Position numbers and translations under genes: made by a program. The notes beneath the pieces are model-generated. The model did no database searches, was not told where the DNA came from, and saw only the letters and a program-made list of their open reading frames with translations. Positions 79 through 58,476 of a stretch of DNA of 64,000 nt are shown here, in pieces. This DNA is from Candidatus Forterrea multitransposorum CG_2015-17_Forterrea_25_41. Lineage in GTDB: Archaea; Iainarchaeota; Iainarchaeia; Iainarchaeales; CSSED10-239. The stretch's first letter is position 1, and each line of letters opens with the position of its first letter. The DNA lies in the NCBI GenBank assembly GCA_009392915.1, contig CP045477.1:96001-160000 (forward strand), read 5' to 3'.

Positions 79-486
79 ATGGTAAAAAATTATATGGTTA
101 AAGCAACTAGAAAAAATGCAGTTGCAAGAGCTTCAATTAAACCTGGGAAAGGAGAAATAAGAGTTAATAAAATGTCTCTTGATGCTATTTATCCTACAGG
201 TTATAAAAAAGCAATTGTTTTAGAACCTACAAAAATTGCTTCTGAAGAATTTTCTAAATTTAATTATAATGTTAATGTTATTGGTGGAGGATCTTCTTCA
301 CAAGTCCAAGCAGTTAGAAGTTGTATTGCTAAGGGAATTGTACTTGCTAATGGTAATAAAAAAGCATTAAAAGATAAATTCTTAGAATATGATAGACATC
401 TTTTAATTGATGATGCTAGAAATAAAGAACCAAAGAAAGAACTTGGTGTTGGTGCTAGAAAGAAGAAACAAAAATCTAAGAGGTGA
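79..486 (+). CDS. rps9: 30S ribosomal protein uS9 (S16e)
   Basis: 135 aa; the C-terminal GGGxxxQxxAxR...ARKKKQKSKR tail and overall sequence are typical of archaeal S9; followed by rpoN and S2 as in the conserved archaeal cluster. Confidence 0.85.
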   Translation: MVKNYMVKATRKNAVARASIKPGKGEIRVNKMSLDAIYPTGYKKAIVLEPTKIASEEFSKFNYNVNVIGGGSSSQVQAVRSCIAKGIVLANGNKKALKDKFLEYDRHLLIDDARNKEPKKELGVGARKKKQKSKR

Positions 487-4561: not shown

Positions 4562-7531
4562 GTGAATATTTTGATAAAAATAAAAAAAGGACAAATTTCT
4601 TTAGAAGCAATTATTATAATTGGTGTTATTGTTTTAGCAAGTATTATATTTGCGACATTCTATATTTCTAATGTTAATAAAAAAATAGATACTGCAAGTA
4701 ATCTAGATCCTAATTTTTCTGGAATGATTGGATCTGATGAAATGGGGTCAACTGATCCTATAACTATTGGTGAAGAACCAGGTCCAGGCCCAGGTCCAGG
4801 AGGAAGTACTTGTGGTGATAATATTATTGAAGGTACAGAAGATTGTGATGGTACTAATTTAGGTGGTGCTACATGTGAGTCTGAAGGTCAAGGTACAGGA
4901 GATTTATCTTGTAATTCAAATTGTACTTTTGATTATTCTGGTTGTTCTAGTCCAACAGCAAGTTATACAATAACTTCAAGTCATGGATCAAATGGAACTA
5001 TTTTTCCTTTAGGAGCTGTAACAGTTTTAGAAGGGGCAAGTAAAAAATTTAATTTGTATCCAAATGCAGGTTATGATGTAGATACTGTTTCAATTGATGG
5101 TGCAGAAGTTTCTCTTAGTGAAAGAAGAAGTTATACTTTTAATAATGTTACTTCCGGTCATACTATTCATGTAACTTTTAAACCTTATGCTTCAAATGAA
5201 CATATTATTTTTGCAAGTAGTGGTTCTCATGGAACCATAGATCCTGCAAGAAATAATACAGTTATAGAAGGAGATGATATTACTTTTACATTTAATCCAG
5301 ATACAGGATATCGTGTAGGTAATGTCTATATTGATGATACTACTGTTGGTTCAGAACAAATAGAGATTATTAATGATTTTTCTTCAAAAGATTCTGAAAA
5401 TAATAATTTATATTTTTCAGAAGAAGATGTTTTATATTTTGCATCTGATACAGGGACAGGTACTTCTTCAAATTTAGTTTATACTTTTGAAGATGTAGAT
5501 GATAGTCATACTATTCATGTAACTTTTATATCAAACACAACTCCTACATATACTTTAGAATATATTGCTGGAGCAAATGGTAGTATTTCTGGTCCAAATC
5601 CTCAAACTGTAAGTCAAGGAGAAGATGGTACAGAAGTATGTGCTGTTGCAGATGAAGGTTATGAATTTTTTAAATGGGATGATGATTATTATTCTGAATG
5701 TAGAACTGAAACAAATGTAACAAGTAATCAAACATATACTGTTATCTTTAATGAAAATGCAGGTCAAACAATGGCTATGAATTTAGAAGGTGTTGAATCA
5801 ACTCCAATAAATCAAAACTTTGATGTTGTTGTTAATACTTCTGAAACTCCAGGAACTGTAAGTTATGGTTTAGTTGCAGGATTATTAATTTATAATGATG
5901 TTGCAGGAGATTATTTGCCAACAAACAATTGTTCTTATAACGGAACTTTTGCTTCAAATCATACACTTGAAACAAATCAATCTCCAGGTATTGAAAATTA
6001 TACTTTTACATGTAATACTTCTGGAAACTATAAATTTACATTTACAGCAACAGATACAACTAACTCAACAAATGATGTTTCAAGAGATAAATTAATTACT
6101 GTTGTAAATAACCAAACAGCAGCACCAACATTTTCAATTGATGGAGGTACTTATTTTAATGATCAAACATTAACTTTAAGTTCAACAACTCCTAGTGCAA
6201 CTATAAAATACACAACTAATGGTACTATCCCAACTTGTACTACAGGAACAACTTATTCTCCTGCAAGTCCAATTCAAATTAATCAAATTTTAACAGTAAA
6301 AGCAATTGCTTGTAAATCTGGATATATTGATAGTCAAGTTGTTACAGAAATTTATAATTTAAAAGTTGGATATCCAGAACCAAGTGTTAATCCTGGTGTA
6401 TATTCTCAAGCACAGACAATTACTCTTTCAACAGAAACAATTGGTGCAACTTTGTATTATTCAACAGATGGTTCTGATGCTTTTGATGGAAGTGTTTACG
6501 TTCCAGGAGAAGAAATTATAATTTCAAAACCATATACTGAATTAAGAGTGGCAGGAGAAAAATCAAATTATAATGATAGTTCAGAATTTGATGAATATTA
6601 TTATATAAATGGTTATGAATCTCCAACTCCAAGTATGGTTTTTACAAATTATTATGGAGATGCATATAATCTTGTAGGTGCTGCAAATTTAACTCACTCA
6701 GATGTTTTCTTTGAAGATGAAGAAAATAATTTAGTAAGATTTGTTAATCCTAAATTAAATGGAGATTATTTTAACGGAAGTAATGCTTCAGGAGCTACAT
6801 TAATAGATTGTGAGGCATTTTGTTCTGAAAAGTATCTTGGAGGAACTTGTGATTCTTTTGATAAAACTAATTATTCTGGAAATGCAAATAATTTGATATA
6901 TTATAGAAATATGATTCCTGGTTCTGGTGGTGCAAATGATGTTTTCCCTTACACAATTGGGGGTGAGTTATCTAATTCTCCTCAATGGGCTTATGCTTCT
7001 GGAGCTATTGGTGGACCAGATAGAGTAGGATACTTCACTTGTGATTTTTCACACACCTCCAGTCCAGAAGATGCAGACTTTGGATTTATTGATTTATATA
7101 CTGAAGATTTATTATTAAATTATGGTGATCCATTTGATGGTACAGAATTCTATTATGATTCTTCAAGAGTAACTTTTGATAATGTTACAAAGTCTGGTTC
7201 AGAATATACTTATTCAGGTTTAAATGTTGTAGGTAATTTTGACACACCAGGCGCAACTGCTCCAACAGGAACAGTTTATATACTTTCAGATGATTTTTCA
7301 CAAGCTTGTGATGCTGTATGTGATGCTTTATATCAAGAAAGTTCTTGTGAAAATTATGATACAACAGATGTATATACTGCTAAAGGAGTTTCATATAATT
7401 ATTATCCTCCTGAATATGCAACAATATTTAATCCTAATTTAAGTACAGGTTATTATTGGACATCTGGAAGTCAACTTTTCTATGATGTTTGGTCAGAAGC
7501 TGTTCTTTCAGAAGTTACTTGTTCAAAGTAA
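4562..7531 (+). CDS. giant surface protein with archaeal class III (type IV pilin-like) signal peptide
   Basis: 989 aa; the N-terminus (M)IKIKKGQISLEAIIIIGVIVLASIIF has the KG/Q...E(+5) prepilin-peptidase motif plus a hydrophobic helix; a Cys-rich CGDNIIEGTEDCDGTN...C repeat (Myxococcus-type cysteine-rich repeat) follows; Thr/Ser/Asn-rich beta-domain body; the start may instead be the TTG at 4571, which sits 5 nt after SD AAGGTGA. Confidence 0.5.
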   Translation: MNILIKIKKGQISLEAIIIIGVIVLASIIFATFYISNVNKKIDTASNLDPNFSGMIGSDEMGSTDPITIGEEPGPGPGPGGSTCGDNIIEGTEDCDGTNLGGATCESEGQGTGDLSCNSNCTFDYSGCSSPTASYTITSSHGSNGTIFPLGAVTVLEGASKKFNLYPNAGYDVDTVSIDGAEVSLSERRSYTFNNVTSGHTIHVTFKPYASNEHIIFASSGSHGTIDPARNNTVIEGDDITFTFNPDTGYRVGNVYIDDTTVGSEQIEIINDFSSKDSENNNLYFSEEDVLYFASDTGTGTSSNLVYTFEDVDDSHTIHVTFISNTTPTYTLEYIAGANGSISGPNPQTVSQGEDGTEVCAVADEGYEFFKWDDDYYSECRTETNVTSNQTYTVIFNENAGQTMAMNLEGVESTPINQNFDVVVNTSETPGTVSYGLVAGLLIYNDVAGDYLPTNNCSYNGTFASNHTLETNQSPGIENYTFTCNTSGNYKFTFTATDTTNSTNDVSRDKLITVVNNQTAAPTFSIDGGTYFNDQTLTLSSTTPSATIKYTTNGTIPTCTTGTTYSPASPIQINQILTVKAIACKSGYIDSQVVTEIYNLKVGYPEPSVNPGVYSQAQTITLSTETIGATLYYSTDGSDAFDGSVYVPGEEIIISKPYTELRVAGEKSNYNDSSEFDEYYYINGYESPTPSMVFTNYYGDAYNLVGAANLTHSDVFFEDEENNLVRFVNPKLNGDYFNGSNASGATLIDCEAFCSEKYLGGTCDSFDKTNYSGNANNLIYYRNMIPGSGGANDVFPYTIGGELSNSPQWAYASGAIGGPDRVGYFTCDFSHTSSPEDADFGFIDLYTEDLLLNYGDPFDGTEFYYDSSRVTFDNVTKSGSEYTYSGLNVVGNFDTPGATAPTGTVYILSDDFSQACDAVCDALYQESSCENYDTTDVYTAKGVSYNYYPPEYATIFNPNLSTGYYWTSGSQLFYDVWSEAVLSEVTCSK

Positions 7532-19799: not shown

Positions 19800-20474
19800 G
19801 TGTTTGATATCGCAGATTTTCCAAAATTAGAATCTCCCTTTATAAGAAAAACTATTAATGAAAAATATATAGTAACTTTTGAGATTAATCCTAAATATAA
19901 ATGGATTTTTAATAGAAACATTGTTTTAGCTTCAGAAAAGATAGATGGAACTAATGTTTCAATAATTATAAATAAAGGAAAAATAATTGATATATACAAT
20001 AGAAAAAATAAAATTGAAATATTAGCAAATAAAAAATATTTTAGATTTATAGATGGTATCAACTATGCCTTATATAAAGAATTATTTAGAACAAATAAAT
20101 CTATGCAAATATTTGGAGAATTAATTGGGCCAACAGTTAATGGAAATCCCTATAATGAAGTAAGAAACATATGGGTGCCTTTTTCTTACTTAAAAGAAAA
20201 ATGTGAATTTAAATTTTGGAATAAATTTTTAGAAGAAGAAATTGACGGTAAAGATTTAAGCGAAAAAGAAATATTTGAAAAAACATCAAATATTTTTAAA
20301 AATCTTTGGAGTCTTTATTATAGAAGAAAAACAGGCGAAAAGATATTTGCTGAAGGAATTGTATTTTATAATAAAGAAACTGGAGAGATGTGTAAACTAA
20401 GAAGAGATATGTTTGATTGGTATGAAGGAATTAGTCATGATTTTTTTAAAGCTAAAGCAAAAAAAGATCTATAA
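19800..20474 (+). CDS. stand-alone Rnl2-like ATP-dependent RNA ligase adenylyltransferase domain
   Basis: 224 aa; motif I EKIDGTN (KxDGxN), FGELIG (motif III-like), AEGIVFY (motif IV EGxV), CKLRRD (motif V Lys); GTG start 6 nt after SD GAGGTGG. Confidence 0.5.
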   Translation: MFDIADFPKLESPFIRKTINEKYIVTFEINPKYKWIFNRNIVLASEKIDGTNVSIIINKGKIIDIYNRKNKIEILANKKYFRFIDGINYALYKELFRTNKSMQIFGELIGPTVNGNPYNEVRNIWVPFSYLKEKCEFKFWNKFLEEEIDGKDLSEKEIFEKTSNIFKNLWSLYYRRKTGEKIFAEGIVFYNKETGEMCKLRRDMFDWYEGISHDFFKAKAKKDL

Positions 20475-20560: not shown

Positions 20561-21496
20561 ATGAGTTATTTATCTAAACTTAAAAGAAATAATAAAACAT
20601 ATTATTATCTTGTAGAAAATATTCCTATATCTAAAGGTAGGCGAAAACAAATTAGAAAATATATAGGGACAATTAAACCTACAGATCAAAAATTATCTTT
20701 AGAACTATTAAAGTTTGAAAAAGAAATTACTTCTAAAAAAAAACAAATGCAAGGATTTACCTATTTAACTAAAGAAGAAATAAAAGAAGTAGATGAAATT
20801 AATTCAAATTTTTGGAAAAAATATAATAAATTATCAAAAACTGAGAGAGAAGAATTTTGGAATAATTTTATTGGAATTTTTGTTTTTAACACAAACTCAA
20901 TAGAAGGTTCAACTTTAACATTAAAGGAAGTTGAACTACTATTATCTGAAAATATATCTCCAAATAGACCTTTAGAAGATGTTTTAGAAGCAAAATCTGC
21001 AAAAAAAGCAATTAATTTTATTTTAAATTATAAATCTGATTTGTCAATAGATTTAATTACTAAAATTCATAAAATATATTTTAAAGAAAGCTTTCCAGAT
21101 ATAGCTGGTAAATTTAAAAGATTAAATAATAGAATAAAAGGATCAAAATTTGATACTACTCCAAAAGAACTAGTTTTAACTGATTTAAAAATACTTATAG
21201 ATAATTATAAAAAATTTAAAAAAGAATTACATCCAATAGAATTATCTGCTTGGTTGCATTGGTCTTTTGTAAAAATTCATCCTTTTCAAGATGGAAATGG
21301 AAGAATTTCAAGATTACTTATGAATTTTATACTTTTTAAAAATAAATATGCTTTAATAGATATTAAAACAAAAGAAAAACAAACATATTTTAATTCTCTT
21401 GAAAAATGTAATTATTTGAATAATGGAAAACCATTAGCTCAAAGATTAGTTAGAAGATTTAAAAAACAGTATAAAAATATATTTTCAAATTTATAG
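20561..21496 (+). CDS. Fic/Doc family protein (class II, self-inhibited AMPylase-like)
   Basis: HPFQDGNGRISR is the canonical Fic motif HxFx(D/E)GNGRxxR; upstream TNSIEGS matches the inhibitory-helix motif (S/T)xxxE(G/N). Confidence 0.8.
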   Translation: MSYLSKLKRNNKTYYYLVENIPISKGRRKQIRKYIGTIKPTDQKLSLELLKFEKEITSKKKQMQGFTYLTKEEIKEVDEINSNFWKKYNKLSKTEREEFWNNFIGIFVFNTNSIEGSTLTLKEVELLLSENISPNRPLEDVLEAKSAKKAINFILNYKSDLSIDLITKIHKIYFKESFPDIAGKFKRLNNRIKGSKFDTTPKELVLTDLKILIDNYKKFKKELHPIELSAWLHWSFVKIHPFQDGNGRISRLLMNFILFKNKYALIDIKTKEKQTYFNSLEKCNYLNNGKPLAQRLVRRFKKQYKNIFSNL

Positions 21497-22380: not shown

Positions 22381-25300
22381 ATGAAAAATAAGATACTAAT
22401 AATTTTTTTATTTACAATTTTACTTTCAACTTTTATTTTTTCAGATCCTGTTGTAAAGATAAATGATAATTTAACAACATATACAAACAGTGATTCTGAA
22501 AACTTCTATGTTGAAGTAAGTAATACTGGAGATAATTGTGAAGTTGAATCTGATTTTATAAGTATTAATTTAAGTTCAGATGCAGCAAGTTCTTTTCCAT
22601 ATTTAATATACTGTAATCTTGAAAGAAATTATAGTGGTTATTTTTCAGTAGATTTTTCAACAAACACACCAACACCTCCAATACCAAATGTTTTAGTTAA
22701 TAATGAAGATACTGTTATTGCAGACTATAATGGGTTTACTGCTAATTTAGTAGTTGACACAATAAATACTATAACAGGAACTTTTGATTTAAATTCTGTT
22801 GATTCAGTTGTAAATAATTACTATAAAGGAGATGTTGAAGTTACTTCTTTAAGTTCTTTTTCAGATGCACATTCTGGTTTAAAAGAATATTACATTTATA
22901 TTGTTGAAGTTGATTCAGTAAATGACTATAGAGATGATTATTATAAGAGATTAATTGTAGATGTTAATGAAACTTCTATTGATTTAGGTACATCTACAAC
23001 TGTTTCTGATGGAAATTATTTTGTTTTAGTTGAAGCTTTAGATTATGCTGAAAATCTTGCAATACCTTCTCAAGTAATTTTAAATAAAAAAAATATGTAT
23101 GTTGATAATACAGCACCTCAAGTAACTTCTTTTAGTTTAGGAAGTTTTTCAGAAGGTACAACTTATTATGTTCCTTCAACAACTACTACTTTGACTTTAT
23201 TAATTGAAGATGATGGTGTAGGGGTAAGGAATGAACCTCTATATACACAAATAGATAGAGATAGTGTAAAGTTAGCAGATTATAATTCTATATTAGGCGG
23301 TTTCTTTTTTGATTTTACAACAGTTGATTATGATATTGATGGTTCATATGAGCTTGCAGCAACAGATCTTTTAGGTAATTTAAATGAAAAAACATTTTCA
23401 ATAATGATAGATGAAACTTCTCCAACAACTCCAACAATTTCAACAGTTACAAGAGCTGTAGATAATAATGTTACAATTTCAAATTGGGGTACTTCAACTG
23501 ATTCTGGAAGTGGTTTAAAAGAATACAAAGTCTATAGGTCAACTTCTTCTTTTACAGAAGTTTCAAATCAAGATTTAATTTGTACAGTTTCTGCAGCTGC
23601 TTCAAAAACTTGTCTTGATTCAACTTCAAAATCAGATGATACAAGATATTATTATGGTGTTACTGCAGTTGATAATGCAGGAAATAATAGTCCAGTTGTA
23701 ACTGCAAGCATAAAAACAGGTCCTGAACTTGATATTTATATTGATTTAGAAGATTCTGATTTTGTAAATACTGTTACTCCAGAGATAACTTTAGAGTATG
23801 GTTCTGATGTTAATGCTGTTAGATTTAGTTGTAATGCTTCAACTTTTACATCATGGGTTGAAGTTTCGGGAACTTCTGAGGTTTATGAAAGTTTTAATGT
23901 AACTTCTGGAAATGGATGTAATACAGATCAAGGAGATAAAATAATTTATGTTGAAGCAAGAAGTGAAGACGATCCTTATCTTATTACTAGAGAATCTTTT
24001 GAGTTTGAACTTGATTCAAAAGCACCAACAATACCTAGTAACATAGAAGTTTTAGAACAAGCAAATGGTTCTTTAAATATTTCTTGGACAAGCTCAACAG
24101 ATGTAAATGGTAGTGGTCTTGAAGAATACAGGATTTATTATTCAGAATCTGAGTCAGTTTCTAAATCCTCACAATATATGACTTCTTCAGATGAAGAGTA
24201 TATTTTTAATCCTAATGAAGATAAAACATTTTATTTTAAAATATCTGCAATTGATGAAGCATTAAATGAATCTGATCTTTCATCTATTGCTTCTGGAACT
24301 GCAAAAAGATTTGGACCTTCTTTTACTTTTAATGCAAGCCCAAAAAATTTAATTGATGATGTTTATTATTTAAAAAAAGGAAATGTTTTATTTACTATTA
24401 CAAGTAGTGAAGAATTAAAACAAACACCTATTATTAGACTTAAAATTGGTAATTCACCTTATAAATCAATTTCTGCAATTTATAGTAATTTAATTACAAC
24501 TTTTAATTATTCTTTAGAAGAAAGTGGAGATTCAATTTTAGAAATTACAGGTACAAATAATAATAATGAAACAACAACTGATACTTTTAATTTTATAGTA
24601 GATGCAGAAGTTCCAACTTTTACTGCTGACTATAATTTCTTTGAAGATACTAAATTATATGAATTTAAAATAAGTGATTTTTCAGATGATGTTTTCAGAG
24701 TTCAATATTTATTTAATAATGTTGAAGAAGTTTGTTTTATTGAAGATTCAAATAACAATTATCTTTGTTCACTTGATTCTACTCTTTATAAAGATGGTAA
24801 TCATAAAATGTATGTTTTAGTTTATGATAGAGCATTAAATTATGAAACTGAAATTATTTCTTTTGAAATAGATAATGTTGATGAAGCTTTAATTTTAAAA
24901 GAAAATTTAGTTGCTGAAATTAATACAAATATTTTTACAATTGAAGATAGAATTTCTTTCCTTCAAGCAATCTCTTTAGAAGTTTCTCAAGATGTTTTAG
25001 ATAAATTTTCTGAAGCTAAAGAAAAAGTTGTTCTTGCAAAATCTCTAGAAGATTCAAATAATTTTTCAGAAGCTGTAAATACTTATACTTCTGTAAATAA
25101 TTCTTTACTTGAGATATTAGAAGTTTTACCTACAGAAAATGTTTTAAAAACAAAAACTATTGAAATTGATCTTTTAGATAATTCTTTTGATCTTAATACA
25201 GTTATTTTGGATCAAAATATATTAACTGATAATTTGTCTTTTTATGATGTTAATAATCAAGACCTAAATTTTATATCAGTTTCAAGAGAATTTAGTGTTT

Positions 25301-25959
25301 TTGAAGTATCTGGTCAAAACTTTTATTCTAGTAATTTAATTTTTGTAAATGACTCTAATGTAGATAAAGTAATTTCTTTTATTGAAGTAATACCTAAAGA
25401 ATTTGAAAAATCTTCAGATAATATTTATTTTGATAGAAATATTGTTGTAATTGATAAAGATCCAATAATTCTTTATAATTTAGTAATTCCTAAAAATTCT
25501 TCTCTTACAACAAAATATATTAGTCAAACAGCAATTACAAGTTTTGATATTTTAACTAAATTTGATGCAATTGTTTACAAGTCTCCTCTTCTTTTAACTG
25601 GATCTGTAAATTTAGAAGATTTAAATTTTGAAAAACCTTTAATTGATAGTAAATCTTTATTTATGATAGCAGTTGTTCTTTTAATAATAATTATCTTACT
25701 TTTAGTAATCTGGATGGTGGCTTCTGGTCGTAAGAAAAAAGAAGATGTCTTTAAAGAAATGGAACCTAAGGATGCTATGAATAAATATCTTGGAAATAAA
25801 CTAAATAGTAATTCTCAAGAAAAATCTTCAACTGATTCTTCTTCATCTAAAACTTTAGAAGAAAAAGAAGAAGAGCATAAAAGTGATCTTGAAAAGAAAA
25901 AGAAGTATGATAGTAATTATGAGTTTATTTTAGATGCTGTTAAAAGAAGTAATAAATAA
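22381..25959 (+). CDS. large secreted surface protein with C-terminal TM anchor (S-layer/adhesin-like)
   Basis: 1192 aa; Sec signal peptide; Thr/Ser/Asn-rich beta-rich body with Ig/FN3-like segments; C-terminal LFMIAVVLLIIIILLLVIWMVASGRKKK anchor plus a 70-aa charged tail. Confidence 0.5.
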   Translation: MKNKILIIFLFTILLSTFIFSDPVVKINDNLTTYTNSDSENFYVEVSNTGDNCEVESDFISINLSSDAASSFPYLIYCNLERNYSGYFSVDFSTNTPTPPIPNVLVNNEDTVIADYNGFTANLVVDTINTITGTFDLNSVDSVVNNYYKGDVEVTSLSSFSDAHSGLKEYYIYIVEVDSVNDYRDDYYKRLIVDVNETSIDLGTSTTVSDGNYFVLVEALDYAENLAIPSQVILNKKNMYVDNTAPQVTSFSLGSFSEGTTYYVPSTTTTLTLLIEDDGVGVRNEPLYTQIDRDSVKLADYNSILGGFFFDFTTVDYDIDGSYELAATDLLGNLNEKTFSIMIDETSPTTPTISTVTRAVDNNVTISNWGTSTDSGSGLKEYKVYRSTSSFTEVSNQDLICTVSAAASKTCLDSTSKSDDTRYYYGVTAVDNAGNNSPVVTASIKTGPELDIYIDLEDSDFVNTVTPEITLEYGSDVNAVRFSCNASTFTSWVEVSGTSEVYESFNVTSGNGCNTDQGDKIIYVEARSEDDPYLITRESFEFELDSKAPTIPSNIEVLEQANGSLNISWTSSTDVNGSGLEEYRIYYSESESVSKSSQYMTSSDEEYIFNPNEDKTFYFKISAIDEALNESDLSSIASGTAKRFGPSFTFNASPKNLIDDVYYLKKGNVLFTITSSEELKQTPIIRLKIGNSPYKSISAIYSNLITTFNYSLEESGDSILEITGTNNNNETTTDTFNFIVDAEVPTFTADYNFFEDTKLYEFKISDFSDDVFRVQYLFNNVEEVCFIEDSNNNYLCSLDSTLYKDGNHKMYVLVYDRALNYETEIISFEIDNVDEALILKENLVAEINTNIFTIEDRISFLQAISLEVSQDVLDKFSEAKEKVVLAKSLEDSNNFSEAVNTYTSVNNSLLEILEVLPTENVLKTKTIEIDLLDNSFDLNTVILDQNILTDNLSFYDVNNQDLNFISVSREFSVFEVSGQNFYSSNLIFVNDSNVDKVISFIEVIPKEFEKSSDNIYFDRNIVVIDKDPIILYNLVIPKNSSLTTKYISQTAITSFDILTKFDAIVYKSPLLLTGSVNLEDLNFEKPLIDSKSLFMIAVVLLIIIILLLVIWMVASGRKKKEDVFKEMEPKDAMNKYLGNKLNSNSQEKSSTDSSSSKTLEEKEEEHKSDLEKKKKYDSNYEFILDAVKRSNK

Positions 25960-29271: not shown

Positions 29272-29562
29272 ATGACTAGCGAAAATGGATCTGTTGAAAC
29301 AAATATAATATATATTGGTAAAAAAGTAACAATGTCTTATGTTTTAGCAGTAATAACTCAATTTAACCAAGGTGCAGAAAGTGTTGTTATTAAAGCAAGA
29401 GGTAAAACAATATCAAAAGCAGTTGATGTTTCTGAGATTGTGAAAAATAAATTTGTAAATACTTTAAGAGTTGAAAAAATAAATATTTCTACAGAAGAGA
29501 TAACAACTGAAAACAATACCCCTATGAAAGTTTCTGCAATTGAAATTATACTTGCAAAGTAA
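29272..29562 (+). CDS. albA: DNA/RNA-binding protein Alba
   Basis: 96 aa; IGKKVTMSYVLAVITQF...VVIKARGKTISKAVDVSEIVKNKF is the Alba signature. Confidence 0.85.
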   Translation: MTSENGSVETNIIYIGKKVTMSYVLAVITQFNQGAESVVIKARGKTISKAVDVSEIVKNKFVNTLRVEKINISTEEITTENNTPMKVSAIEIILAK

Positions 29563-29566
29563 ATTT

Positions 29567-31015
29567 CTAATTAACTATTAGTTTTGGTATTGGTAAGTTT
29601 AATTGAGGAAAATAATTATTTATTTTCTCAATAATTTTTTTTTCTTTTACAATTACTTTTTCTTTGTCTATTAAATATTTATTTTCATTTACATCTATTT
29701 TCTTAATGGTTTCAAGCTTCAAATATTTTATTGATTGAGCAAGTAAAGAATCATAAAACTTAGTATTTTTATGTTCTATAAACTTAGGTATCTCTTCAAT
29801 AAGGTCATTTATAAGTTTGTATTCTGTTAGATATTGTATAAACATAGGATTTTGTTCTAAATTGTTCTTGAAAGAATAATTATAGTTAAAAGAATTACTT
29901 AAATTTATAGAAGTTTCTAAATATTTTAATCTCTTTAAATATTCTTTTATTTTAATAGATAAGAAAGATTCTTTCTTTAAACAATACCATTTGATTTCAT
30001 CTAAGTTATCAATTATTTCAATTTCTTCTTCTGAAACTAAATTTACTGCATCTATTAAAGGAATACTTGCAAAATCTCCTTTGTAAAAAGGTCCTGTTGG
30101 CATTTCTTTTAAACCATTATTTTTTTTGAAATTAATTCTATTTTCTTTATTTATATTCTCTTGATGGAATTGTTCATATGCCCATTTTTGATCTTTTGAA
30201 ATAAAATAGAATCCTTGTTTTTTAAATCTTACTTTAACAATTGAATTTGATAAAACATTTATATCTAAATAGTTTTTTGGTTTACAACAATCACAATTTA
30301 AAGTATCATGCCCTATATTGTAAAAATCTTTTGTTAAAAGATATGGCCAGATATTTGAAAAATCCATTTTAATTCCTTGTCTTATGTTTTTTTCTTTTTC
30401 TAAGTATTCTATACTAATTTTATTGTTTAGCATCATTTTATTTTCAAAATATAAGTTTTCAAAGAAATTATTTAAAATTTCTTGATTATTAATATTTTTA
30501 ATTTTTATTTTTAATATGTTACTTAAAAGTAGTTTTTTAGTTAAGTTTTCAATTAACTTTAATTGCTCTTCTTTTAAGAAAGGATTTATATATTTTTTAA
30601 CAATTGAACTTATATTGTTATTTTCTATTTTTTTAATTCTTGTTTTTGAAACAATTATAAATAAATCATAATAACTCCATTCTTTCTCAATTAAATACTC
30701 TCTTTCAATATCTAAGATTAATATGTTTTTAGAAGTAGATATAGATAATATTTTATAAATCTTATTTAATGTTTCTTTATTTTTTGCAATTACTTTAATT
30801 TTATTTTTTTCAATTTTTTCTATATTTACTTCTCTTTTAAAATCAGATAATAGCTTTTGTACTACTTCTTTTGGAAGGTCAATATAAAAATAAGGGTTAA
30901 ATTTTTCCTTATAAACAAAATCATACTTATTGCTATAAGGATCTTTTGAAAAATAGCTTATAATTCTTTGTTTTTCTTCTTCATACACGCATTCTGTTAA
31001 ATATAGTTGTTCCAT
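29567..31015 (-). CDS. degenerate family-B DNA polymerase homolog (PolB-like, likely catalytically inactive)
   Basis: 482 aa; the N-terminus LYLTECVYEEEKQRIISYF...KFNPYFYI is colinear with the PolB N-terminal domain (ILDVDYITEEGKPVIRLF...FRPYIYAL); ILILDIE matches Exo I (FDIET); the Exo II NGDxFD is absent; DFAS-IPLI (motif A lacking LYPS), LSNSFNYNY (motif B-like) and FYDSLL (motif C lacking DTD) occur in the canonical order. Confidence 0.45.
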   Translation of the reverse strand: MEQLYLTECVYEEEKQRIISYFSKDPYSNKYDFVYKEKFNPYFYIDLPKEVVQKLLSDFKREVNIEKIEKNKIKVIAKNKETLNKIYKILSISTSKNILILDIEREYLIEKEWSYYDLFIIVSKTRIKKIENNNISSIVKKYINPFLKEEQLKLIENLTKKLLLSNILKIKIKNINNQEILNNFFENLYFENKMMLNNKISIEYLEKEKNIRQGIKMDFSNIWPYLLTKDFYNIGHDTLNCDCCKPKNYLDINVLSNSIVKVRFKKQGFYFISKDQKWAYEQFHQENINKENRINFKKNNGLKEMPTGPFYKGDFASIPLIDAVNLVSEEEIEIIDNLDEIKWYCLKKESFLSIKIKEYLKRLKYLETSINLSNSFNYNYSFKNNLEQNPMFIQYLTEYKLINDLIEEIPKFIEHKNTKFYDSLLAQSIKYLKLETIKKIDVNENKYLIDKEKVIVKEKKIIEKINNYFPQLNLPIPKLIVN

Positions 31016-31196: not shown

Positions 31197-32831
31197 ATGG
31201 CAATTAAAAAAAATATTTTAACTTTAGAGCTCAAATTATTAATATTTTCTCTAATTTCTTTATTTGTCCTTAAAATATTTTATATTAAACAATTAGATAT
31301 AATCTTAATTACAACTTTTTTTGATATTTTAATTTTTACATTTATTTTTTCAATTTTTATTTTATTTAAAAATATTTTTTCAAAAGTTTTATTTCATATT
31401 ATTTATGTTTTAAATTTTATTCTTTTTTCTTTTTTCTACATTTTCTATTATGATGTATCTCAAAGAGGGCTTTTCATTTCTAAAATAAAATTAGATGCAA
31501 TTACTTTTGTTTTAAAAAATATTATTTCTTTTAAATTAATATTAATTGTATTTCTTGCTTTATTTTTTATCTATTTTTTATCTTTTTTTATTTTAAAATA
31601 TAAAAAGTTTTTATTAAATTCATTTACTTTAAAATTAGTTTCTGTGATTTCTCTTTTAATATTTTTATTTCTAGTATTATTATTTAATCTAAATTATAAT
31701 CCTTATGCTGATGTTGTTTTAAATTTTAAAAATAGTTTTAGTTATATTCCTTTAGAAGATAATTCTAAAGATTTATCTATTTTTCCAGTAAACAATACAT
31801 TATATCCTGAAAATGAATTAGATATTAAATATAAAAAAATAATTCTGCTTATTGGTGAAGAATGGATGTTTTCTAGCTTTTTGAAAGATAGTAATTCTTT
31901 AGATAATAGTTTTTTTAAAAAAACTGAAAATAATACTCATTTTTATTCAAATTATTACACCACAAATCAAGATAGTAGAACTGCTATTTACACTTTACTT
32001 ACAAGTCAATTTATTCCTTTTGAAGCATATTTAGATTCTACTTATTCAATATATCTTGAAAAGATTAAAACAGTTCCAAGTCTTGTAGATTATTTTAATG
32101 ATAATAATTATTCTTCTTTCTTTGTAGTTTCTTCAATTGAACAACCAGATATTGCAACTCCTTTTAATTGGACTGAAATTGTAACTTTAAAAGAAGATGT
32201 TTATAATAGTAATAATTATTATTGTTCTTCACTTTTTACATATGAAACTTCTTGTGAAGATCTTTCTATTTTAGATGATGTGAAAAAAAAATTAATTTCT
32301 GATGAAAATATATTTTTAGTTCAAGAGTTTATTTATGGTCATAGCTACAAACATATTATAGATACTAAAAAATCAAGAACTCAATATTATAATAATTATT
32401 TTAATTCATTATATGATTTTTTAGAAAAAGAATCCTTGTTAAAAGATACTTTAATAATCATTACTTCAGATCATGGTTCTAGAGCTTACAATGAAATGGT
32501 TTCTCCTGAAGGATATCATATTCCTTTTTTAGTAATTTCAAACAATTTAGATTATAAAGATGATGATTCTCTTTTATCTCATTTAAATTTTAAAGATATT
32601 CTTTATAAATATATCTTAGGTATAGATTATATACCAAACAATAAATCTATAATGTTTACTGGTGGAACAAACAGTGATCTTTTAGGTTTTATTACAAATA
32701 AAAATGATTTTGGAATAATTAATTCTTCTAAATCATTATTAATAAATTATAATAAAGAAGATTTATCTATTAAAGAGAAATCTCAAAATCATTATAGTTA
32801 TTATAATTTTTTAAAAAATAATTTTAAATAA
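31197..32831 (+). CDS. membrane-anchored sulfatase/LtaS-family (alkaline phosphatase superfamily) transferase
   Basis: N-terminal ~5 TM helices followed by an extracytoplasmic domain with the IITSDHGSR motif typical of sulfatase/LtaS/phosphoglycerol transferases. Confidence 0.55.
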   Translation: MAIKKNILTLELKLLIFSLISLFVLKIFYIKQLDIILITTFFDILIFTFIFSIFILFKNIFSKVLFHIIYVLNFILFSFFYIFYYDVSQRGLFISKIKLDAITFVLKNIISFKLILIVFLALFFIYFLSFFILKYKKFLLNSFTLKLVSVISLLIFLFLVLLFNLNYNPYADVVLNFKNSFSYIPLEDNSKDLSIFPVNNTLYPENELDIKYKKIILLIGEEWMFSSFLKDSNSLDNSFFKKTENNTHFYSNYYTTNQDSRTAIYTLLTSQFIPFEAYLDSTYSIYLEKIKTVPSLVDYFNDNNYSSFFVVSSIEQPDIATPFNWTEIVTLKEDVYNSNNYYCSSLFTYETSCEDLSILDDVKKKLISDENIFLVQEFIYGHSYKHIIDTKKSRTQYYNNYFNSLYDFLEKESLLKDTLIIITSDHGSRAYNEMVSPEGYHIPFLVISNNLDYKDDDSLLSHLNFKDILYKYILGIDYIPNNKSIMFTGGTNSDLLGFITNKNDFGIINSSKSLLINYNKEDLSIKEKSQNHYSYYNFLKNNFK

Positions 32832-36791: not shown

Positions 36792-38186
36792 ATGAACAAA
36801 AATTTAACAAAATTATTTTTCTGGATATTTGGTATAATATTCAGTGGAATTTTTTATTTTTTCTCAAAAACATCTACTTCTTTATCATATATTAATGAAA
36901 TTAAGTTTCTTCCATACGTAATAATGTTAATAATTATTTTGTTATTTTTCTTAATTGGTATTTTATTTTCGAAAATACCTTTTTTTTGGTATTCAAAATT
37001 TAGAAAATCCAATCTTAATGAAGTTTTATCTGAAGTTGATGTAAAAAAAACTGAAGAAAATATTGATCAATTAATTGATAAATTAAAAGATGCTATAAAA
37101 AATATTAGTAAAAGTAATTATTCTCAAATATCTATAAATTATTTAATAAAGAATGTAGGTATTTCAAAAGAAAGTGCAGATGGAATTATTAAAAATATAA
37201 AGAGATTAAAAAGATTAAAAACTTTATCAATAGCTTTAGGAATTATAATTTCTTTAGGTTTATATTTTTTTGTAAGTAGTTTACCAGTATTTAATATTAT
37301 TCCAAATTATGTGTTTATAATATCTGCAGTAATTATTTTTCTTTTATTTGTTTTAGAAGGTTATTTAATTACAAGAATGCCTGATTCATTTTATTTAAAT
37401 TTAATTAATATAAATAAAGAAAAAATATTAGAAGTTAAAAGAGAATCTTTAGAAAAAGAAGAAAAGTTAAATAATTATAATCAAAAACAAAAAGGTTTGT
37501 TAGATAATATTCAAAAAGCAACTAAATTTCTTTTATCTCAAGATGTAAGTAAAGAAGCAATTTCTAATTTCTTTAGTAAATATGATGTTGATCAGTCTAC
37601 AATTTCAAAATTTATTGAACTTTCAGAAAAAGAATTAAATATTGAAAAGAATAATTCTGGAAAAGTTTTATTTAATGCAAAATCAGATTCTGCAATAAGA
37701 TTAACTCTTTCTAAAATACACGATAGTTTTGAACAAATTAATCAAATATATAATGAAGTTTCAAAACTTCAAAAAGAAGTAAGTGATATTTCTCAAAGAC
37801 AAGAAAAACTTGAAAAAATGTCAACTATTAGTGTTTCAAAAGAAGTTAAAAAACTTAAAAAAGAACCAATAATGTCAAACAAGTATAAGGATTTAAAAAA
37901 AGCAGATCCTAAAGAAATTAAAGAATTGTTAGATAAAAGAAATGAAGAATATGATAAACTTATAAGTTATTTATATCACTTGTTCTTACCATCTGTTGAA
38001 ACTTCTTCTCAAAATGATGTTTTTTCTACATTAGTTTATTATGGTTATCCTTATGAGATTGTAGAAGATGTTTTACAAAAGTTTAAAGATAAAAAAATTA
38101 ATTTCGGGAAAGATAAAAAAGTATCTTTCTCTGAAAAATTAGTAAATAAAATTAATGGTTTTTATGAATTATTTGCCTCTAAATAA
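36792..38186 (+). CDS. polytopic membrane protein with long coiled-coil (paralog A of unknown family)
   Basis: 464 aa; two TM hairpins (res ~5-60 and ~145-190) flank a soluble insert, followed by ~200 aa of predicted coiled-coil and a conserved C-terminal domain (VYYGYPYEIVEDVLQKF); paralogous to 49583-50956. Confidence 0.5.
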   Translation: MNKNLTKLFFWIFGIIFSGIFYFFSKTSTSLSYINEIKFLPYVIMLIIILLFFLIGILFSKIPFFWYSKFRKSNLNEVLSEVDVKKTEENIDQLIDKLKDAIKNISKSNYSQISINYLIKNVGISKESADGIIKNIKRLKRLKTLSIALGIIISLGLYFFVSSLPVFNIIPNYVFIISAVIIFLLFVLEGYLITRMPDSFYLNLININKEKILEVKRESLEKEEKLNNYNQKQKGLLDNIQKATKFLLSQDVSKEAISNFFSKYDVDQSTISKFIELSEKELNIEKNNSGKVLFNAKSDSAIRLTLSKIHDSFEQINQIYNEVSKLQKEVSDISQRQEKLEKMSTISVSKEVKKLKKEPIMSNKYKDLKKADPKEIKELLDKRNEEYDKLISYLYHLFLPSVETSSQNDVFSTLVYYGYPYEIVEDVLQKFKDKKINFGKDKKVSFSEKLVNKINGFYELFASK

Positions 38187-49582: not shown

Positions 49583-50956
49583 ATGGGTTATTCTTTTAAA
49601 AAAGAAAGTAGATTATTTTTTTGGATATTAAGTATTTTACTTTCTTCATTAATATTTTCTATATTATATTTCTTCCAAGTGTTTGGAAGTTCTCAAAATA
49701 ATTCTCTTTCATTTATCTTTTCATTAATTATTTTAATTGTTTTATTTATTGTTGGTATGTTTAATTATAAACTTACAACAAAGCTATATGGTTTTATTTC
49801 TTCACAAAGAGATTTATCTAAACTTATAAGTAGAATTAATCTAGATGATTCTGAAGAAAATATTCAAAAAATGATTAGTAGATTTAAAGAAGTTTTTTAT
49901 AATCTTGATCTTTCAGATAAAGAAGGTTCAATTTTAATTATTAGAAAAACTGTTGGCTTAGATTCTGATGCTGCTTTCAAAGTATATAAGATTCTAAAAA
50001 ATATTAGTTTTACAAAAAATGTTTTAACTATTTCTGGTTTTTTAATATCTGTAATTGTTTATTTTATAATTACAAAAATTAATTTTTTTAATATTATTAC
50101 TGAAACTAAGTTTTTCCCACTTGCAATTTCTTTATTATTATTTTTTATATTTTTATTTGAAAGTAGATTGTCTTCTAAAATACCTTCTAGTTTTTATATT
50201 AACCTTGTAATTATTAATAAAAAAGCATTAACAAATAGTAAAAAGGATGTAATTGATAGTGAAAATCAATTAAATAATATTTTTAAAAAAAGAGATGAAA
50301 TTAGAGAAAAAATAAAAGATATTGTTTTTAATTTAACAAAACAAGGTTTTAAAAAAAAAGATGTTGTTGAAATAATTAATTCTAGAAAAAAAGATTCTTA
50401 TGGTCTAAAAGATTTAATTATGCAATCAAATGAAGATTTTAATTCAGAAGCAAAAAAAGCTTCTTTTAAAGATGTTTCTTTAGATATTGAGAATATTTTA
50501 AAATTTTATGAAGATGTTAAAAATAAAGAAAAAGAAGTGCTTTCTTTAAAAGAGAAAATAAACCAAATTAGAGAAATTCAAGAAACTGTTGAAAAAATAA
50601 ATTCTAATGATTGGGATTATTATAAAAATATTAAATTTAATTTAAATAAATCTAAAGAATTTGAAAGAAACATAACTGATGAAATTTCAAGTAAATTACA
50701 TCATAGATCTGAACTTAAGGAAGATAAAGAAGTTATAATTAAAAATTTATATAATTTATTCATAAATTATAAAGACTCAATTACAAAAGATCAAGTTTAT
50801 TCTTTTTTAATTTCTAAAGGTTATTGTTATGAAACTATTATGGATCTTTTTGATGAATTTAAGAAAAATAATATTGATTTAACTAAAAATAAAAAAACTT
50901 TTCAAGACAAAATTATTTCAAAGATTAATAATGTTTATGAAAGTTTTAAAGATTAG
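49583..50956 (+). CDS. polytopic membrane protein with long coiled-coil (paralog B)
   Basis: 457 aa; same architecture as 36792-38186 (2 TM, insert, 2 TM, PSSFYINLVIINKK, coiled-coil, C-terminal VYSFLISKGYCYETIMDLFDEF). Confidence 0.5.
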   Translation: MGYSFKKESRLFFWILSILLSSLIFSILYFFQVFGSSQNNSLSFIFSLIILIVLFIVGMFNYKLTTKLYGFISSQRDLSKLISRINLDDSEENIQKMISRFKEVFYNLDLSDKEGSILIIRKTVGLDSDAAFKVYKILKNISFTKNVLTISGFLISVIVYFIITKINFFNIITETKFFPLAISLLLFFIFLFESRLSSKIPSSFYINLVIINKKALTNSKKDVIDSENQLNNIFKKRDEIREKIKDIVFNLTKQGFKKKDVVEIINSRKKDSYGLKDLIMQSNEDFNSEAKKASFKDVSLDIENILKFYEDVKNKEKEVLSLKEKINQIREIQETVEKINSNDWDYYKNIKFNLNKSKEFERNITDEISSKLHHRSELKEDKEVIIKNLYNLFINYKDSITKDQVYSFLISKGYCYETIMDLFDEFKKNNIDLTKNKKTFQDKIISKINNVYESFKD

Positions 50957-58119: not shown

Positions 58120-58476
58120 ATGGTTAAAAAAGATTATAAATTGAAATCTTATAGATTATCTGATAGTTCCTTAAAATTAATATATAATGTTTCTAAAGAA
58201 AAAGATTTGAGTGAATCTGAAGCTTTAAGAATGTTAGTTGACAAAGGGCTTTATGAATATAAGTTAGAGTCAGCAATAAAAACATATTATGATAAAAATT
58301 TAGATTTAACTGCTGGAGCAAAACTTGCTGGTATTTCCAAAAGAGAGTTTATGGAAGAACTTTCAAGAAAAGGGGAAGGTATTAATCTTTCAAAAGAAGA
58401 TTATGATTATTCTAAAAAATCTTTTGAAAAATTATTTGGAAAAACAAAAAAGAAAACTACTCAAAAGCCCAAGTAG
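58120..58476 (+). CDS. UPF0175-like HTH antitoxin candidate
   Basis: 118 aa; LDLTAGAKLAGISKREFMEELSRKG resembles the UPF0175 HTH (ISLGKAAELAGMSRWEF...); SD AAGGAGG. Confidence 0.45.
   Translation: MVKKDYKLKSYRLSDSSLKLIYNVSKEKDLSESEALRMLVDKGLYEYKLESAIKTYYDKNLDLTAGAKLAGISKREFMEELSRKGEGINLSKEDYDYSKKSFEKLFGKTKKKTTQKPK

What the first reader, a model, noticed from the sequence alone, without database searches (positions are those of the whole stretch)
29567..31015. Miniaturised, probably catalytically dead family-B DNA polymerase homolog divergent from Alba
The 482-aa protein is colinear with archaeal PolB. It has the N-terminal-domain motifs (LxLxExxYEEEKxxIxxYF...FNPYFYI) and an Exo I-like ILILDIE. 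Exo II is missing. Motif A is reduced to DFAS-IPLI (no LYPS), motif B is degenerate (LSNSFNYNY) and motif C is FYDS instead of YxDTDS. It is about 60% the length of a real PolB. Inactivated PolB paralogs are known in some archaea, but a compact one paired head-to-head with Alba is unusual. It could be a structural/regulatory replisome or chromatin component.
Basis: partly seen in the sequence, partly recalled or inferred. Interest (0 to 1): 0.6.

Follow-up and report, generated by a model that had tools for sequence, protein, structure and literature searches.

The report
Dead mini-PolB linked to DNA-end repair
This gene encodes a conserved, catalytically dead, stripped-down relative of family-B DNA polymerases from tiny DPANN archaea; it carries an unexpected cysteine-clamped, GINS-like insert and in most relatives sits inside the NurA-HerA-Rad50 DNA-break-repair cluster, so it has probably been re-used as a repair or replication adaptor rather than as a polymerase.

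Summary

The "miniaturised dead PolB" idea therefore holds, but four motif assignments are wrong:
- True motif A is KMDFSNIWPYLL (216-227).
- The motif C equivalent is YLIDKEKVIV (447-456).
- "ILILDIE" lies in the N-terminal domain, not Exo I.
- "DFASIPLI" lies in an insert.

The Exo and thumb domains are absent. Catalytic positions are not conserved (motif A Asp 41/51; motif C acidic 10/51). The invariant residues are three cysteines before and one after a ~97-aa insert, which resembles GINS B-domains rather than the Pol epsilon P-domain.

Alba is convergent (4 nt between stop codons), not head-to-head, and is adjacent only in the close clade. In all 12 distant loci examined the order is NurA-HerA-[this gene], with Rad50 convergent, where mre11 usually sits.

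Best reading: a non-catalytic DNA-binding or docking subunit of end-resection/recombination machinery. Function is inferred, not shown.

The parts
29567..31015 (-). Whole CDS (482 aa plus stop) of the inactivated mini-PolB-like protein
   Evidence: ORF list; 38 close and 159 clustered homologues; dN/dS 0.04; AF2 model pLDDT 85.9, pTM 0.85
30623..31015 (-). PolB-type N-terminal domain (residues 1-131), including near-invariant Y11, invariant P41, and the ERQ(F/Y)L...WSY(F/Y)DxF block (104-119).
30374..30622 (-). Helical linker and N-terminal palm (residues 132-214), in place of the ~196-aa 3'-5' exonuclease domain. Only 217 residues precede the motif A Asp, against 404 in Pfu.
   Evidence: DSSP of the model; D218 to Pfu D405 alignment; no Exo motifs found
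30335..30370 (-). Degenerate motif A, KMDFSNIWPYLL (residues 216-227). D218 is equivalent to the Pfu D405 metal ligand.
   Evidence: hhalign Q208-245 to Pfu 395-430, E 0.0027; D218 is D in only 41/51 members (N6, S2, E1, P1)
30284..30295 (-). Cys triad C241-D-C243-C244 at the N-terminal base of the insert
   Evidence: C241 and C244 51/51, C243 50/51; C244 aligns with Pfu C429
29990..30280 (-). ~97-aa insert (residues 246-342) between motif A and the fingers. It contains a GINS-B-domain-like module and carries family-invariant R293, G308, P309, D322 and near-invariant H284.
29981..29989 (-). W343-Y-C345: the fourth invariant cysteine, at the C-terminal base of the insert
   Evidence: C345 51/51, W343 50/51; aligns with Pfu HKFC443
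29774..29965 (-). Fingers: two long antiparallel helices (residues 351-414). The motif B equivalent (~400-412) lacks the K/N/S/Y/G signature.
   Evidence: DSSP H351-380 and H390-414; hhalign Q342-456 to Pfu 440-547; column composition
29753..29764 (-).
   Evidence: hhalign; conservation F420 46/51
29648..29677 (-). Motif C-equivalent beta-hairpin YLIDKEKVIV (residues 447-456). D450 and E452 align with Pfu D541 and D543 but are not conserved in the family.
   Evidence: hhalign; position 450 D 10/51, position 452 E 10/51; strands 447-450 and 453-456
29570..29647 (-). Short C-terminal palm remnant (residues 457-482) with the conserved F..LPxPxI tail. There is no thumb domain: 32 residues follow the motif C equivalent, against 234 in Pfu.
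   Evidence: Model DSSP; P477 50/51, P475 43/51
29272..29562 (+). Alba gene, convergent neighbour (4 nt between stop codons). This is context only and probably not functionally tied.
   Evidence: Pfam Alba E 8.6e-20; sequence; adjacency only in the clade with at least 42% identity

Best explanation
The gene encodes a non-catalytic derivative of a family-B DNA polymerase.

Shown:
- It keeps the PolB N-terminal domain, palm and fingers.
- It has lost the whole 3'-5' exonuclease domain and the thumb.
- It no longer conserves the motif A, B or C catalytic and dNTP-binding residues.
- What the family does conserve absolutely is three cysteines just after motif A (C241, C243, C244) and one cysteine (C345) about 100 residues later, flanking a ~97-aa insert.

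Likely:
- The insert folds like a GINS B-domain, which is a protein-docking module.
- The four cysteines (possibly with H284) clamp its base with a metal (Zn or Fe-S). This is the same 3+1 topology as the CysX site of Pol epsilon.

Inferred from gene context:
- The protein works with the HerA-NurA helicase-nuclease and Rad50 in processing DNA ends for recombinational repair.
- The PolB-derived core would bind DNA (single strand or ss/ds junction), and the clamped insert would dock a partner protein.
- In the window's own lineage the gene has moved away from that cluster and now lies tail-to-tail with Alba, which is probably incidental.
For: PolB fold:
- Foldseek top 50 all PolBs.
- Model pLDDT 85.9.
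- Colinear hhalign segments covering motif A and fingers-motif C.

Domain loss:
- 217 versus 404 residues before the motif A Asp.
- 32 versus 234 residues after motif C.

Inactivation:
- D218 in 41/51 members.
- Motif C positions acidic in 10/51.
- No motif B signature.

Functional constraint:
- dN/dS 0.04.
- Invariant C241, C244, C345, R293, G308, P309, D322.

Insert:
- Stand-alone model pLDDT 89.1.
- Pfam PSF2_N in 7/42 inserts, best E 5.3e-4.
- Gins51_C hit on residues 308-330.
- PSF2_N hit on P0101 residues 319-348.
- The Gins51 C-domain is a known docking module for GAN and DP1 (PMC9023282).

3+1 Cys topology:
- It matches Pol epsilon CysX, where three Cys lie before and one after the P-domain (PMC6582351).

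Context:
- NurA-HerA-[gene] with Rad50 convergent in 10/10 distant GTDB loci and 2/2 further metagenome loci.
- The intermediate clade keeps NurA and/or HerA within 3-8 kb.
- Most of the family's diversity is of the distant type: only about 4 of the 150 listed representatives score as the window type.
Against: - Sequence-only methods never reach PolB, and hhalign probability is low (13.5%).
- I could not inspect model coordinates, so spatial clustering of the four cysteines is inferred from topology only.
- The conserved cluster also contains clearly unrelated genes (rpoK, S17e, EF1beta), so synteny within one phylum may reflect ancestry rather than function.
- The window's own clade has no NurA, HerA or Rad50 within 64 kb.
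- In the window's subclade both motif C-equivalent positions are acidic (D450, E452) and D218 is present, so residual metal binding cannot be excluded.
- There is no experimental data of any kind.
Confidence: 0.5

Rival explanations
1. It is a replisome scaffold, analogous to the inactive C-terminal PolB module of Pol epsilon. It would bridge the helicase complex (GINS, GAN/RecJ, MCM) or PolD through its GINS-B-like insert.
For: - Precedent exists for inactive PolB modules acting as scaffolds (PMC7544198).
- The GINS-B-like insert.
- Gins51C docks GAN and DP1N (PMC9023282).
- Weak DUF1744 hits in 2/51 members, E 0.018.
Against: - No replication gene (MCM, GINS, PolD, PCNA, primase) is a conserved neighbour in any locus.
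- The conserved neighbours are NurA, HerA and Rad50.
- The DUF1744 hits could not be reproduced in the 10 members rescanned.
Confidence: 0.2
2. It is an unconventional but active polymerase or translesion extender, as happened with PolB2/Dpo2, which was predicted to be dead and later shown to be active.
For: - Precedent: PolB2 was predicted inactive but is active in lesion extension (PMC8764526).
- The window protein itself has D218 plus D450 and E452 at the motif A and C positions.
Against: - These acidic residues are not conserved across the family (41/51 and 10/51).
- Motif B is gone.
- No thumb is present to hold duplex DNA.
- The family's invariant residues all lie in the insert and Cys site, not in the active site.
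Confidence: 0.05
3. It is a chromatin or Alba partner: the protein works with the adjacent Alba.
For: Alba is the immediate neighbour in the window and throughout the close clade (21 loci).
Against: - The genes are convergent, so they cannot share a promoter.
- In the P0034 clade another gene sits between them.
- Alba is absent from the neighbourhood in all distant members.
Confidence: 0.03
4. It is a decaying relic, a pseudogenised polymerase fragment with no function.
For: Massive domain loss and loss of catalytic residues.
Against: - dN/dS 0.04.
- Near-constant length across 159 clusters.
- Nine invariant positions at 32% mean column identity.
- Confident compact fold.
Confidence: 0.01

Closest known systems
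Archaeal family-B DNA polymerases (e.g. S. solfataricus PolB1 1s5j; Pfu, KOD, 9°N PolB)
   Same: - Motif A remnant DFSxxWP is recognisable.
- The post-motif-B S(K/R)F(Y/F)...LA..I segment is present.
- The motif C hairpin geometry is kept.
   Different: - No exonuclease domain and no thumb.
- Motifs A, B and C are not conserved.
- A ~97-aa insert with a 3+1 Cys site.
- No detectable Pfam PF00136 or PF03104 signal.
- About 62% of the length.
Inactivated archaeal PolB2 (Rogozin et al. 2008, PMC2527604; Dpo2, PMC8764526)
   Same: An archaeal PolB paralogue with degenerate catalytic motifs that exists alongside other polymerases.
   Different: - PolB2 retains one conserved motif C Asp and a D(K/R) motif (PMC7544198). 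This family conserves neither.
- As I recall, PolB2 also keeps an exonuclease-like domain and a thumb, which this family lacks (not checked here).
- No PolB2 or other PolB-length protein (the longest listed is 546 aa) appears among the 150 representatives listed from the family-profile search of 1.84 billion proteins.
Pol epsilon catalytic core CysX / P-domain (PDB 6qib; PMC6582351)
   Same: - An insertion in the palm after motif A.
- It is clamped by three cysteines on its N-terminal side and one on its C-terminal side.
- Spacing from the motif A Asp is similar: +23/+25/+26/+127 here against +25/+28/+37/+123 in Pol2. The D640 position of Pol2 motif A is from my memory.
   Different: - The host protein is catalytically dead.
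- The metal identity is unknown.
GINS B-domain (Gins51 C-terminal, Gins23/Psf2 N-terminal; 5ghr, 3anw, 9moj)
   Same: - The GPF...(I/V)PLxDAxxL motif matches the PSF2_N and Gins51_C profiles weakly.
   Different: - It is embedded inside a PolB palm rather than attached to a GINS A-domain.
- Scores are below Pfam cut-offs.
- Homology versus convergence is unresolved.
Non-catalytic C-terminal PolB module of Pol epsilon (PolEpsilonC)
   Different: It is eukaryotic, much larger, retains an exo-like domain, has C-terminal CysA/CysB zinc modules, and sits in a replication rather than repair context.
Archaeal herA-mre11-rad50-nurA cluster
   Same: In 12/12 distant family loci the gene sits directly after herA and next to rad50, the slot that mre11 occupies in the canonical operon. 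The canonical order is from established knowledge, not tested here.
   Different: - The protein has a PolB fold, not an Mre11 phosphoesterase fold.
- rad50 is convergent.
- The window's clade has left the cluster.

Membership tests
Family-B DNA polymerase (structural superfamily) | N-terminal domain, palm and fingers fold in PolB order | tested here: met
   [not shown]
Family-B DNA polymerase (functional enzyme) | Sequence signature recognised by Pfam DNA_pol_B / DNA_pol_B_exo1 or by PDB sequence profiles | tested here: not met
   No hit for the protein or for any of 51 members
Family-B DNA polymerase (functional enzyme) | 3'-5' exonuclease domain with Exo I-III | tested here: not met
Family-B DNA polymerase (functional enzyme) | Motif A with an invariant catalytic Asp (DxxSLYPS) | tested here: not met
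   The motif is recognisable (DFSxxWP) but the Asp is present in only 41/51 members
Family-B DNA polymerase (functional enzyme) | Motif B KxxxNSxYG | tested here: not met
   Equivalent columns 396-412 show no conserved K, N, Y or G
Family-B DNA polymerase (functional enzyme) | Motif C DTD(S/G) catalytic aspartates | tested here: not met
   Equivalent positions 450 and 452 are acidic in 10/51 each. In the window protein they are D and E.
Family-B DNA polymerase (functional enzyme) | Thumb domain | tested here: not met
   The protein ends 32 residues after the motif C equivalent, against 234 in Pfu
Archaeal PolB2 (inactivated group B2) | One conserved motif C Asp plus the group-specific D(K/R) motif (as described in PMC7544198); PolB-length protein (the length is from my memory) | tested here: not met
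   No conserved Asp at motif C; length ~480-530 aa; the family HMM recovers no PolB-length protein among the 150 listed representatives
Pol epsilon CysX / P-domain | Three Cys before and one Cys after an insertion in the palm following motif A | tested here: met
   C241, C243, C244 and C345 flank residues 246-342 and are invariant; definition from PMC6582351
Pol epsilon CysX / P-domain | The insert has the P-domain fold | tested here: not met
   [not shown]
Pol epsilon CysX / P-domain | Binds a [4Fe-4S] cluster | not testable with these tools
GINS B-domain | B-domain fold | tested here: met
   [not shown]
GINS B-domain | Passes the Pfam PSF2_N or Gins51_C gathering score | tested here: not met
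   Best E 5.3e-4 (7/42 inserts) and E 0.13, against a 27-bit cut-off: the window's Gins51_C hit scores 12.5 bits and P0101's PSF2_N hit 13.8 bits
GINS subunit | Alpha-helical A-domain paired with the B-domain | tested here: not met
   The host is a PolB palm; no A-domain-like match was found
HerA-NurA-(Mre11)-Rad50 end-resection gene cluster | Conserved adjacency to herA, nurA and rad50 | tested here: met
   12/12 distant loci. This is not met in the window itself or its closest clade.
HerA-NurA-(Mre11)-Rad50 end-resection gene cluster | Physical or functional interaction with the complex | not testable with these tools
   Requires pull-downs, genetics or multimer modelling

The most novel reading that the evidence does not exclude
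In Iainarchaeota a polymerase-dead, exo-less and thumb-less PolB has been exapted as the fourth component of the HerA-NurA-Rad50 end-resection machine. It would occupy, positionally and perhaps functionally, the slot of Mre11. It would dock partners through a metal-clamped GINS-B-like domain. This would be an archaeal, repair-side parallel to the way eukaryotes turned an inactive PolB (PolEpsilonC) plus GINS contacts into a replisome scaffold. It would also be the first CysX-like intramolecular metal staple in a PolB outside Pol epsilon.
Probability: 0.15. Interest if true: 0.8.

Novelty: new variant of a known kind. Interest (0 to 1): 0.6.

Why it matters
Inactivated PolBs re-used as scaffolds are central to models of how the eukaryotic replisome evolved (PolEpsilonC, PolB2). 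The 2020 census of PolB diversity (PMC7544198) states two things: that P-domain/CysX-type features exist only in Pol epsilon orthologues, and that no metal-binding domains had been detected in archaeal PolBs.

This family matters for four reasons:
- It is invisible to sequence profiles and so was missed by such censuses.
- It shows an extreme reduction of the PolB fold to the N-terminal domain, palm and fingers.
- It carries an invariant 3+1 cysteine clamp around an inserted GINS-B-like module.
- It is embedded in the DNA-break-repair cluster of a DPANN phylum, where no Mre11 gene lies next to Rad50.

If the inferred role holds, it gives a tractable small protein for asking how polymerase folds become adaptors. 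It would also show how reduced-genome archaea process DNA ends.

Tried and rejected
1. Pfam, NCBIfam, PDB phmmer and PDB hmmsearch with a 31-sequence profile gave no PolB or any other significant family. A Pfam scan of all 51 members gave only sub-threshold hits.
2. The other 482-aa minus-strand ORF (58457-59905) is not a paralogue. It is Cys-tRNA synthetase.
3. I looked for a real polymerase in the window. The 29 ORFs of the window that were scanned, including all seven of at least 543 aa, contain no PolB, PolD or other replication or repair gene, and tblastn found no NurA, HerA or Rad50 anywhere in the window. Whether the genome has them elsewhere could not be tested, because only flanks of up to 10 kb are retrievable.
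4. My own first guess, that invariant NTKFY (417-421) was a degenerate DTD motif C, was rejected. It aligns with Pfu ARWY after motif B, and N417 and K419 are not conserved in the wider family.
5. The hypothesis that the insert is a Pol epsilon-type P-domain was rejected at the fold level. Only the Cys topology is shared.
6. PADLOC defence models gave no hit for three family members.
7. An Mre11 motif scan (DxH...GD...GNH[DE], and a relaxed version) over all loci and the window found nothing.
8. The DUF1744 (PolEpsilonC) lead was not reproduced in 10 divergent members and is left as unverified.
9. The search for related loci with the broad alignment A2 failed because no conserved stretch was available. 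It was rerun with A1, so the genome census is biased towards the close clade.
10. hhalign of the N-terminal 215 residues against PolB gave only a 12-residue, non-significant match. The homology of the N-terminal domain rests on the structure matches.
Full report
**1. Observation**

The window has 19-29% G+C and encodes archaeal housekeeping genes:
- aIF5B, aIF2-gamma, thermosome, GatE/GatD;
- Alba, L7Ae, several aminoacyl-tRNA synthetases.

The closest genome records are 'Candidatus Iainarchaeum / ainarchaeum' MAGs, which are DPANN archaea.

The gene is real and constrained:
- 38 homologues of 42-95% identity, nearly all 481-492 aa, were found by word-seeded search.
- 159 clusters at 50% identity were found by an exhaustive HMM search of 1.84 billion representatives. 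Almost all full-length members are 480-530 aa, and no PolB-length protein is among the 150 listed.
- dN/dS against the 95%-identical orthologue is 0.04.
- Every source calls these proteins 'hypothetical protein'.

The orientation claim is wrong. Alba (29272-29562, plus strand) and the ORF are convergent, with 4 nt between their stop codons. The gene that is divergent from the ORF is a sulfatase-family membrane protein (31197-32831).

**2. Is it a PolB homologue?**

Sequence methods say nothing:
- Pfam, NCBIfam and PDB phmmer on the single sequence gave no relevant hit.
- A 31-sequence HMM against all PDB sequences gave nothing.
- Pfam on each of 51 diverse members gave only sub-threshold hits.

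Structure methods are decisive. An AlphaFold2 model built on the family alignment is confident (mean pLDDT 85.9, pTM 0.85).
- Foldseek against the PDB returns only family-B polymerases in the top 50. The best is 9°N Pol, E 2.8e-7, probability 1.0. The alignments span about 690 columns of targets of about 760 residues, so they are colinear with large gaps.

I also ran hhalign of a 51-sequence family profile against a reference profile made of real Pfu, Pab, Tgo, KOD and Tli PolBs plus E. coli Pol II. It is weak on its own, but it yields two independent, colinear segments:
- Q208-245 to Pfu 395-430 (E 0.0027).
- Q342-456 to Pfu 440-547 (E 0.014).
- The default run has a probability of 13.5% and E 0.0021.

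**3. Corrected anatomy**

Coordinates were verified.

| Element | Residues | Notes |
|---|---|---|
| N-terminal domain | 1-131 | Near-invariant Y11, invariant P41, and the block (E)PERQ(F/Y)L...WSY(F/Y)DxF |
| Helical linker / N-terminal palm | 132-214 | Replaces the Exo domain |
| Motif A | 216-227 | KMDFSNIWPYLL, aligned to Pfu LDFRALYPSII (D218 to D405) |
| Cys triad | 241-244 | C-D-C-C |
| Insert | 246-342 | About 97 aa; Pfu has about 10 residues here |
| W-x-C | 343-345 | Aligns with Pfu HKFC443 |
| Fingers | 351-414 | Two long helices; the motif B equivalent (~400-412) shows no K/N/S/Y/G conservation |
| TKFY...LAQSI | 418-429 | Aligns with Pfu ARWY...CAESV |
| Motif C hairpin | 447-456 | YLIDKEKVIV, aligned to Pfu LYIDTDGLYA |
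| C-terminal tail | 457-482 | The protein ends 32 residues after the motif C equivalent |

It aligns, non-significantly, with Pfu IPFAKRYLIDKG 114-125 rather than with FDIET. Position 103 is Pro in 46/51 members.
- Only 217 residues precede the motif A Asp, against 404 in Pfu. The deficit of 187 equals an Exo domain. That domain is about 196 aa in Thermococcales PolB, a figure from my knowledge of the KOD/Pfu structures.
- Pfu has 234 residues after motif C, so there is no thumb.

**4. Catalytic status**

Across 51 diverse members:
- The motif A Asp is D in 41 (N6, S2, E1, P1).
- The two motif C-equivalent positions are D in 10 and E in 10 respectively.
- The motif B equivalents are unconserved.

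A polymerase under selection for catalysis would keep these residues invariant.

One caveat applies. The window protein and its nearest relatives do have D218, D450 and E452. However, with no motif B and no thumb, activity is very unlikely.

**5. What is conserved instead**

- Invariant in 51/51: P41, C241, C244, R293, G308, P309, D322, C345.
- In at least 90% of members (at least 46/51), among others: C243 (50), W343 (50), R105 (49), H284 (48), W113 (46).

Selection therefore acts on the Cys site and the insert, not on the polymerase active site.

The arrangement is three Cys before and one Cys after an insertion that follows motif A. [quoted passage not shown] The PolB census paper states that this feature is found only in Pol epsilon orthologues and that metal-binding domains were unknown in archaeal PolBs (PMC7544198).

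- Further Psf2, Psf3, Sld5, Psf1 and Gins51 chains.

Pfam gives independent, sub-threshold support for the GINS-B similarity:
- It matches PSF2_N in 7 of 42 isolated inserts (best E 5.3e-4).
- It matches Gins51_C on window residues 308-330, the invariant GPF...IPLxDAxxL motif.
- In P0101 the PSF2_N match covers residues 319-348.

The Gins51 C-domain is a known docking module for GAN/RecJ and PolD DP1 (PMC9023282).

I rate structural similarity to the GINS B-domain as likely (about 0.65). Homology is open.

**6. Genomic context**

In the window's clade and other members of at least 42% identity, the convergent Alba neighbour (usually together with the cysteine desulfurase gene) is conserved (21 loci). 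In the distant members (18-33% identity), which hold most of the family's diversity, Alba is absent.

The order in the distant members is NurA -> HerA -> [this gene] -> (sometimes RpoK, S17e) -> <- Rad50 (zinc hook) <- EF1beta.
- This holds in 10/10 GTDB loci (L023-L027, L029, L032-L034) and in 2/2 further metagenome loci. In L023 and L035 the contig ends inside or just before herA, so nurA could not be seen.
- An intermediate clade (P0034-like) keeps NurA 6-9 kb upstream and/or an intein-containing HerA 3-6 kb downstream.
- The window's own clade has lost the linkage: there is no NurA, HerA or Rad50 in the 64 kb.
- No Mre11-type phosphoesterase motif occurs in any fetched locus.

In the canonical archaeal operon (herA-mre11-rad50-nurA, from established knowledge) the slot between herA and rad50 is mre11's.

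A caution is needed. The same conserved block contains obviously unrelated genes (rpoK, S17e, EF1beta) and all loci come from one phylum. The association is therefore suggestive rather than proof.

**7. Mechanism proposed**

Shown:
- The protein has a PolB-derived fold lacking the Exo and thumb domains.
- The catalytic motifs are not under selection.
- There is an invariant 3+1 Cys site around an inserted domain.

Likely:
- The cysteines, possibly with H284, bind a metal that staples the base of the insert.
- The insert is a GINS-B-like docking module.

Inferred:
- The protein acts as a non-catalytic DNA-binding or adaptor subunit in HerA-NurA/Rad50 end processing.

Rivals:
- A replisome scaffold like PolEpsilonC (0.2).
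- A cryptically active polymerase like Dpo2 (0.05).
- An Alba or chromatin partner (0.03).
- A decaying relic (0.01).

**8. Novelty**

No Pfam, NCBIfam or PADLOC family covers the protein. No paper in the searchable library describes a PolB-like protein with these features or this context. Inactivated PolBs are a known kind (PolB2, PolEpsilonC). This is a new, structurally extreme variant with two unexpected additions and an unexpected repair context.

**9. Limits**

- I could not read model coordinates, so the geometry of the Cys site and the residue-level structural alignments are inferred from hhalign and secondary-structure order.
- I could not survey whole genomes for Mre11, PolB, PolD or GINS.
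- The reference PolB profile was narrow (Thermococcales plus E. coli).
- The genome scan used patterns from the close clade, so the family's taxonomic range is a lower bound. At least Iainarchaeota/Diapherotrites are covered, with one record labelled Micrarchaeota and one labelled Thaumarchaeota.

Noticed in passing
L001 12508-15012 (also L002, L011, L014, L019, L030): HerA in the P0034-like clade is about 834 aa because it carries an intein (Intein_splicing plus a LAGLIDADG homing endonuclease) inside the ATPase.
   Followed up: no
L025 6494-8464; L036 10022-12076; L026, L027, L029, L032-L035: Rad50 (zinc hook, about 650-810 aa) is preceded by EF1beta and has no Mre11-type phosphoesterase gene anywhere within 10 kb. 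This is unusual, because mre11 and rad50 are normally adjacent in archaea.
   Followed up: partly
P0016 (535 aa), alignment A1 columns ~220-272: One homologue has a ~53-aa internal tandem duplication of the segment just before motif A (repeat of ...IRPEINIKNDEILNILFENNFY.NKLVLKNKQKI...).
   Followed up: no
window 447-456 of the protein (29648-29677): In the window's own subclade the motif C-equivalent reads I-[DE]-[KR]-[DE]-K, acidic at both PolB catalytic positions, unlike the wider family. Either this is coincidence or there is residual metal binding.
   Followed up: partly
window 4562-7531, 22381-25959, 60142-62544: Three very large ORFs (989, 1192 and 800 aa) have only Ig-like/CHB_HEX_C/Flg_new-type domains or no Pfam hit. 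They are probably surface or adhesion proteins typical of DPANN episymbionts.
   Followed up: no
window 19800-20474 and 20561-21496: An RNA-ligase-family protein lies next to a Fic/DOC-family protein.
   Followed up: no
window 36792-38186 and 49583-50956: Two ORFs of about 460 aa have no Pfam hit at E of 1e-4 or better.
   Followed up: no
L001 2126-2832: A ParE toxin / RHH antitoxin pair lies immediately next to NurA in the P0034-like clade.
   Followed up: no
family members: Two of 51 members give weak Pfam hits (best E 0.018) to DUF1744, which from my memory is the family covering the non-catalytic C-terminal PolB-like half of Pol epsilon. I could not find the matching members in a rescan of 10.
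   Followed up: partly
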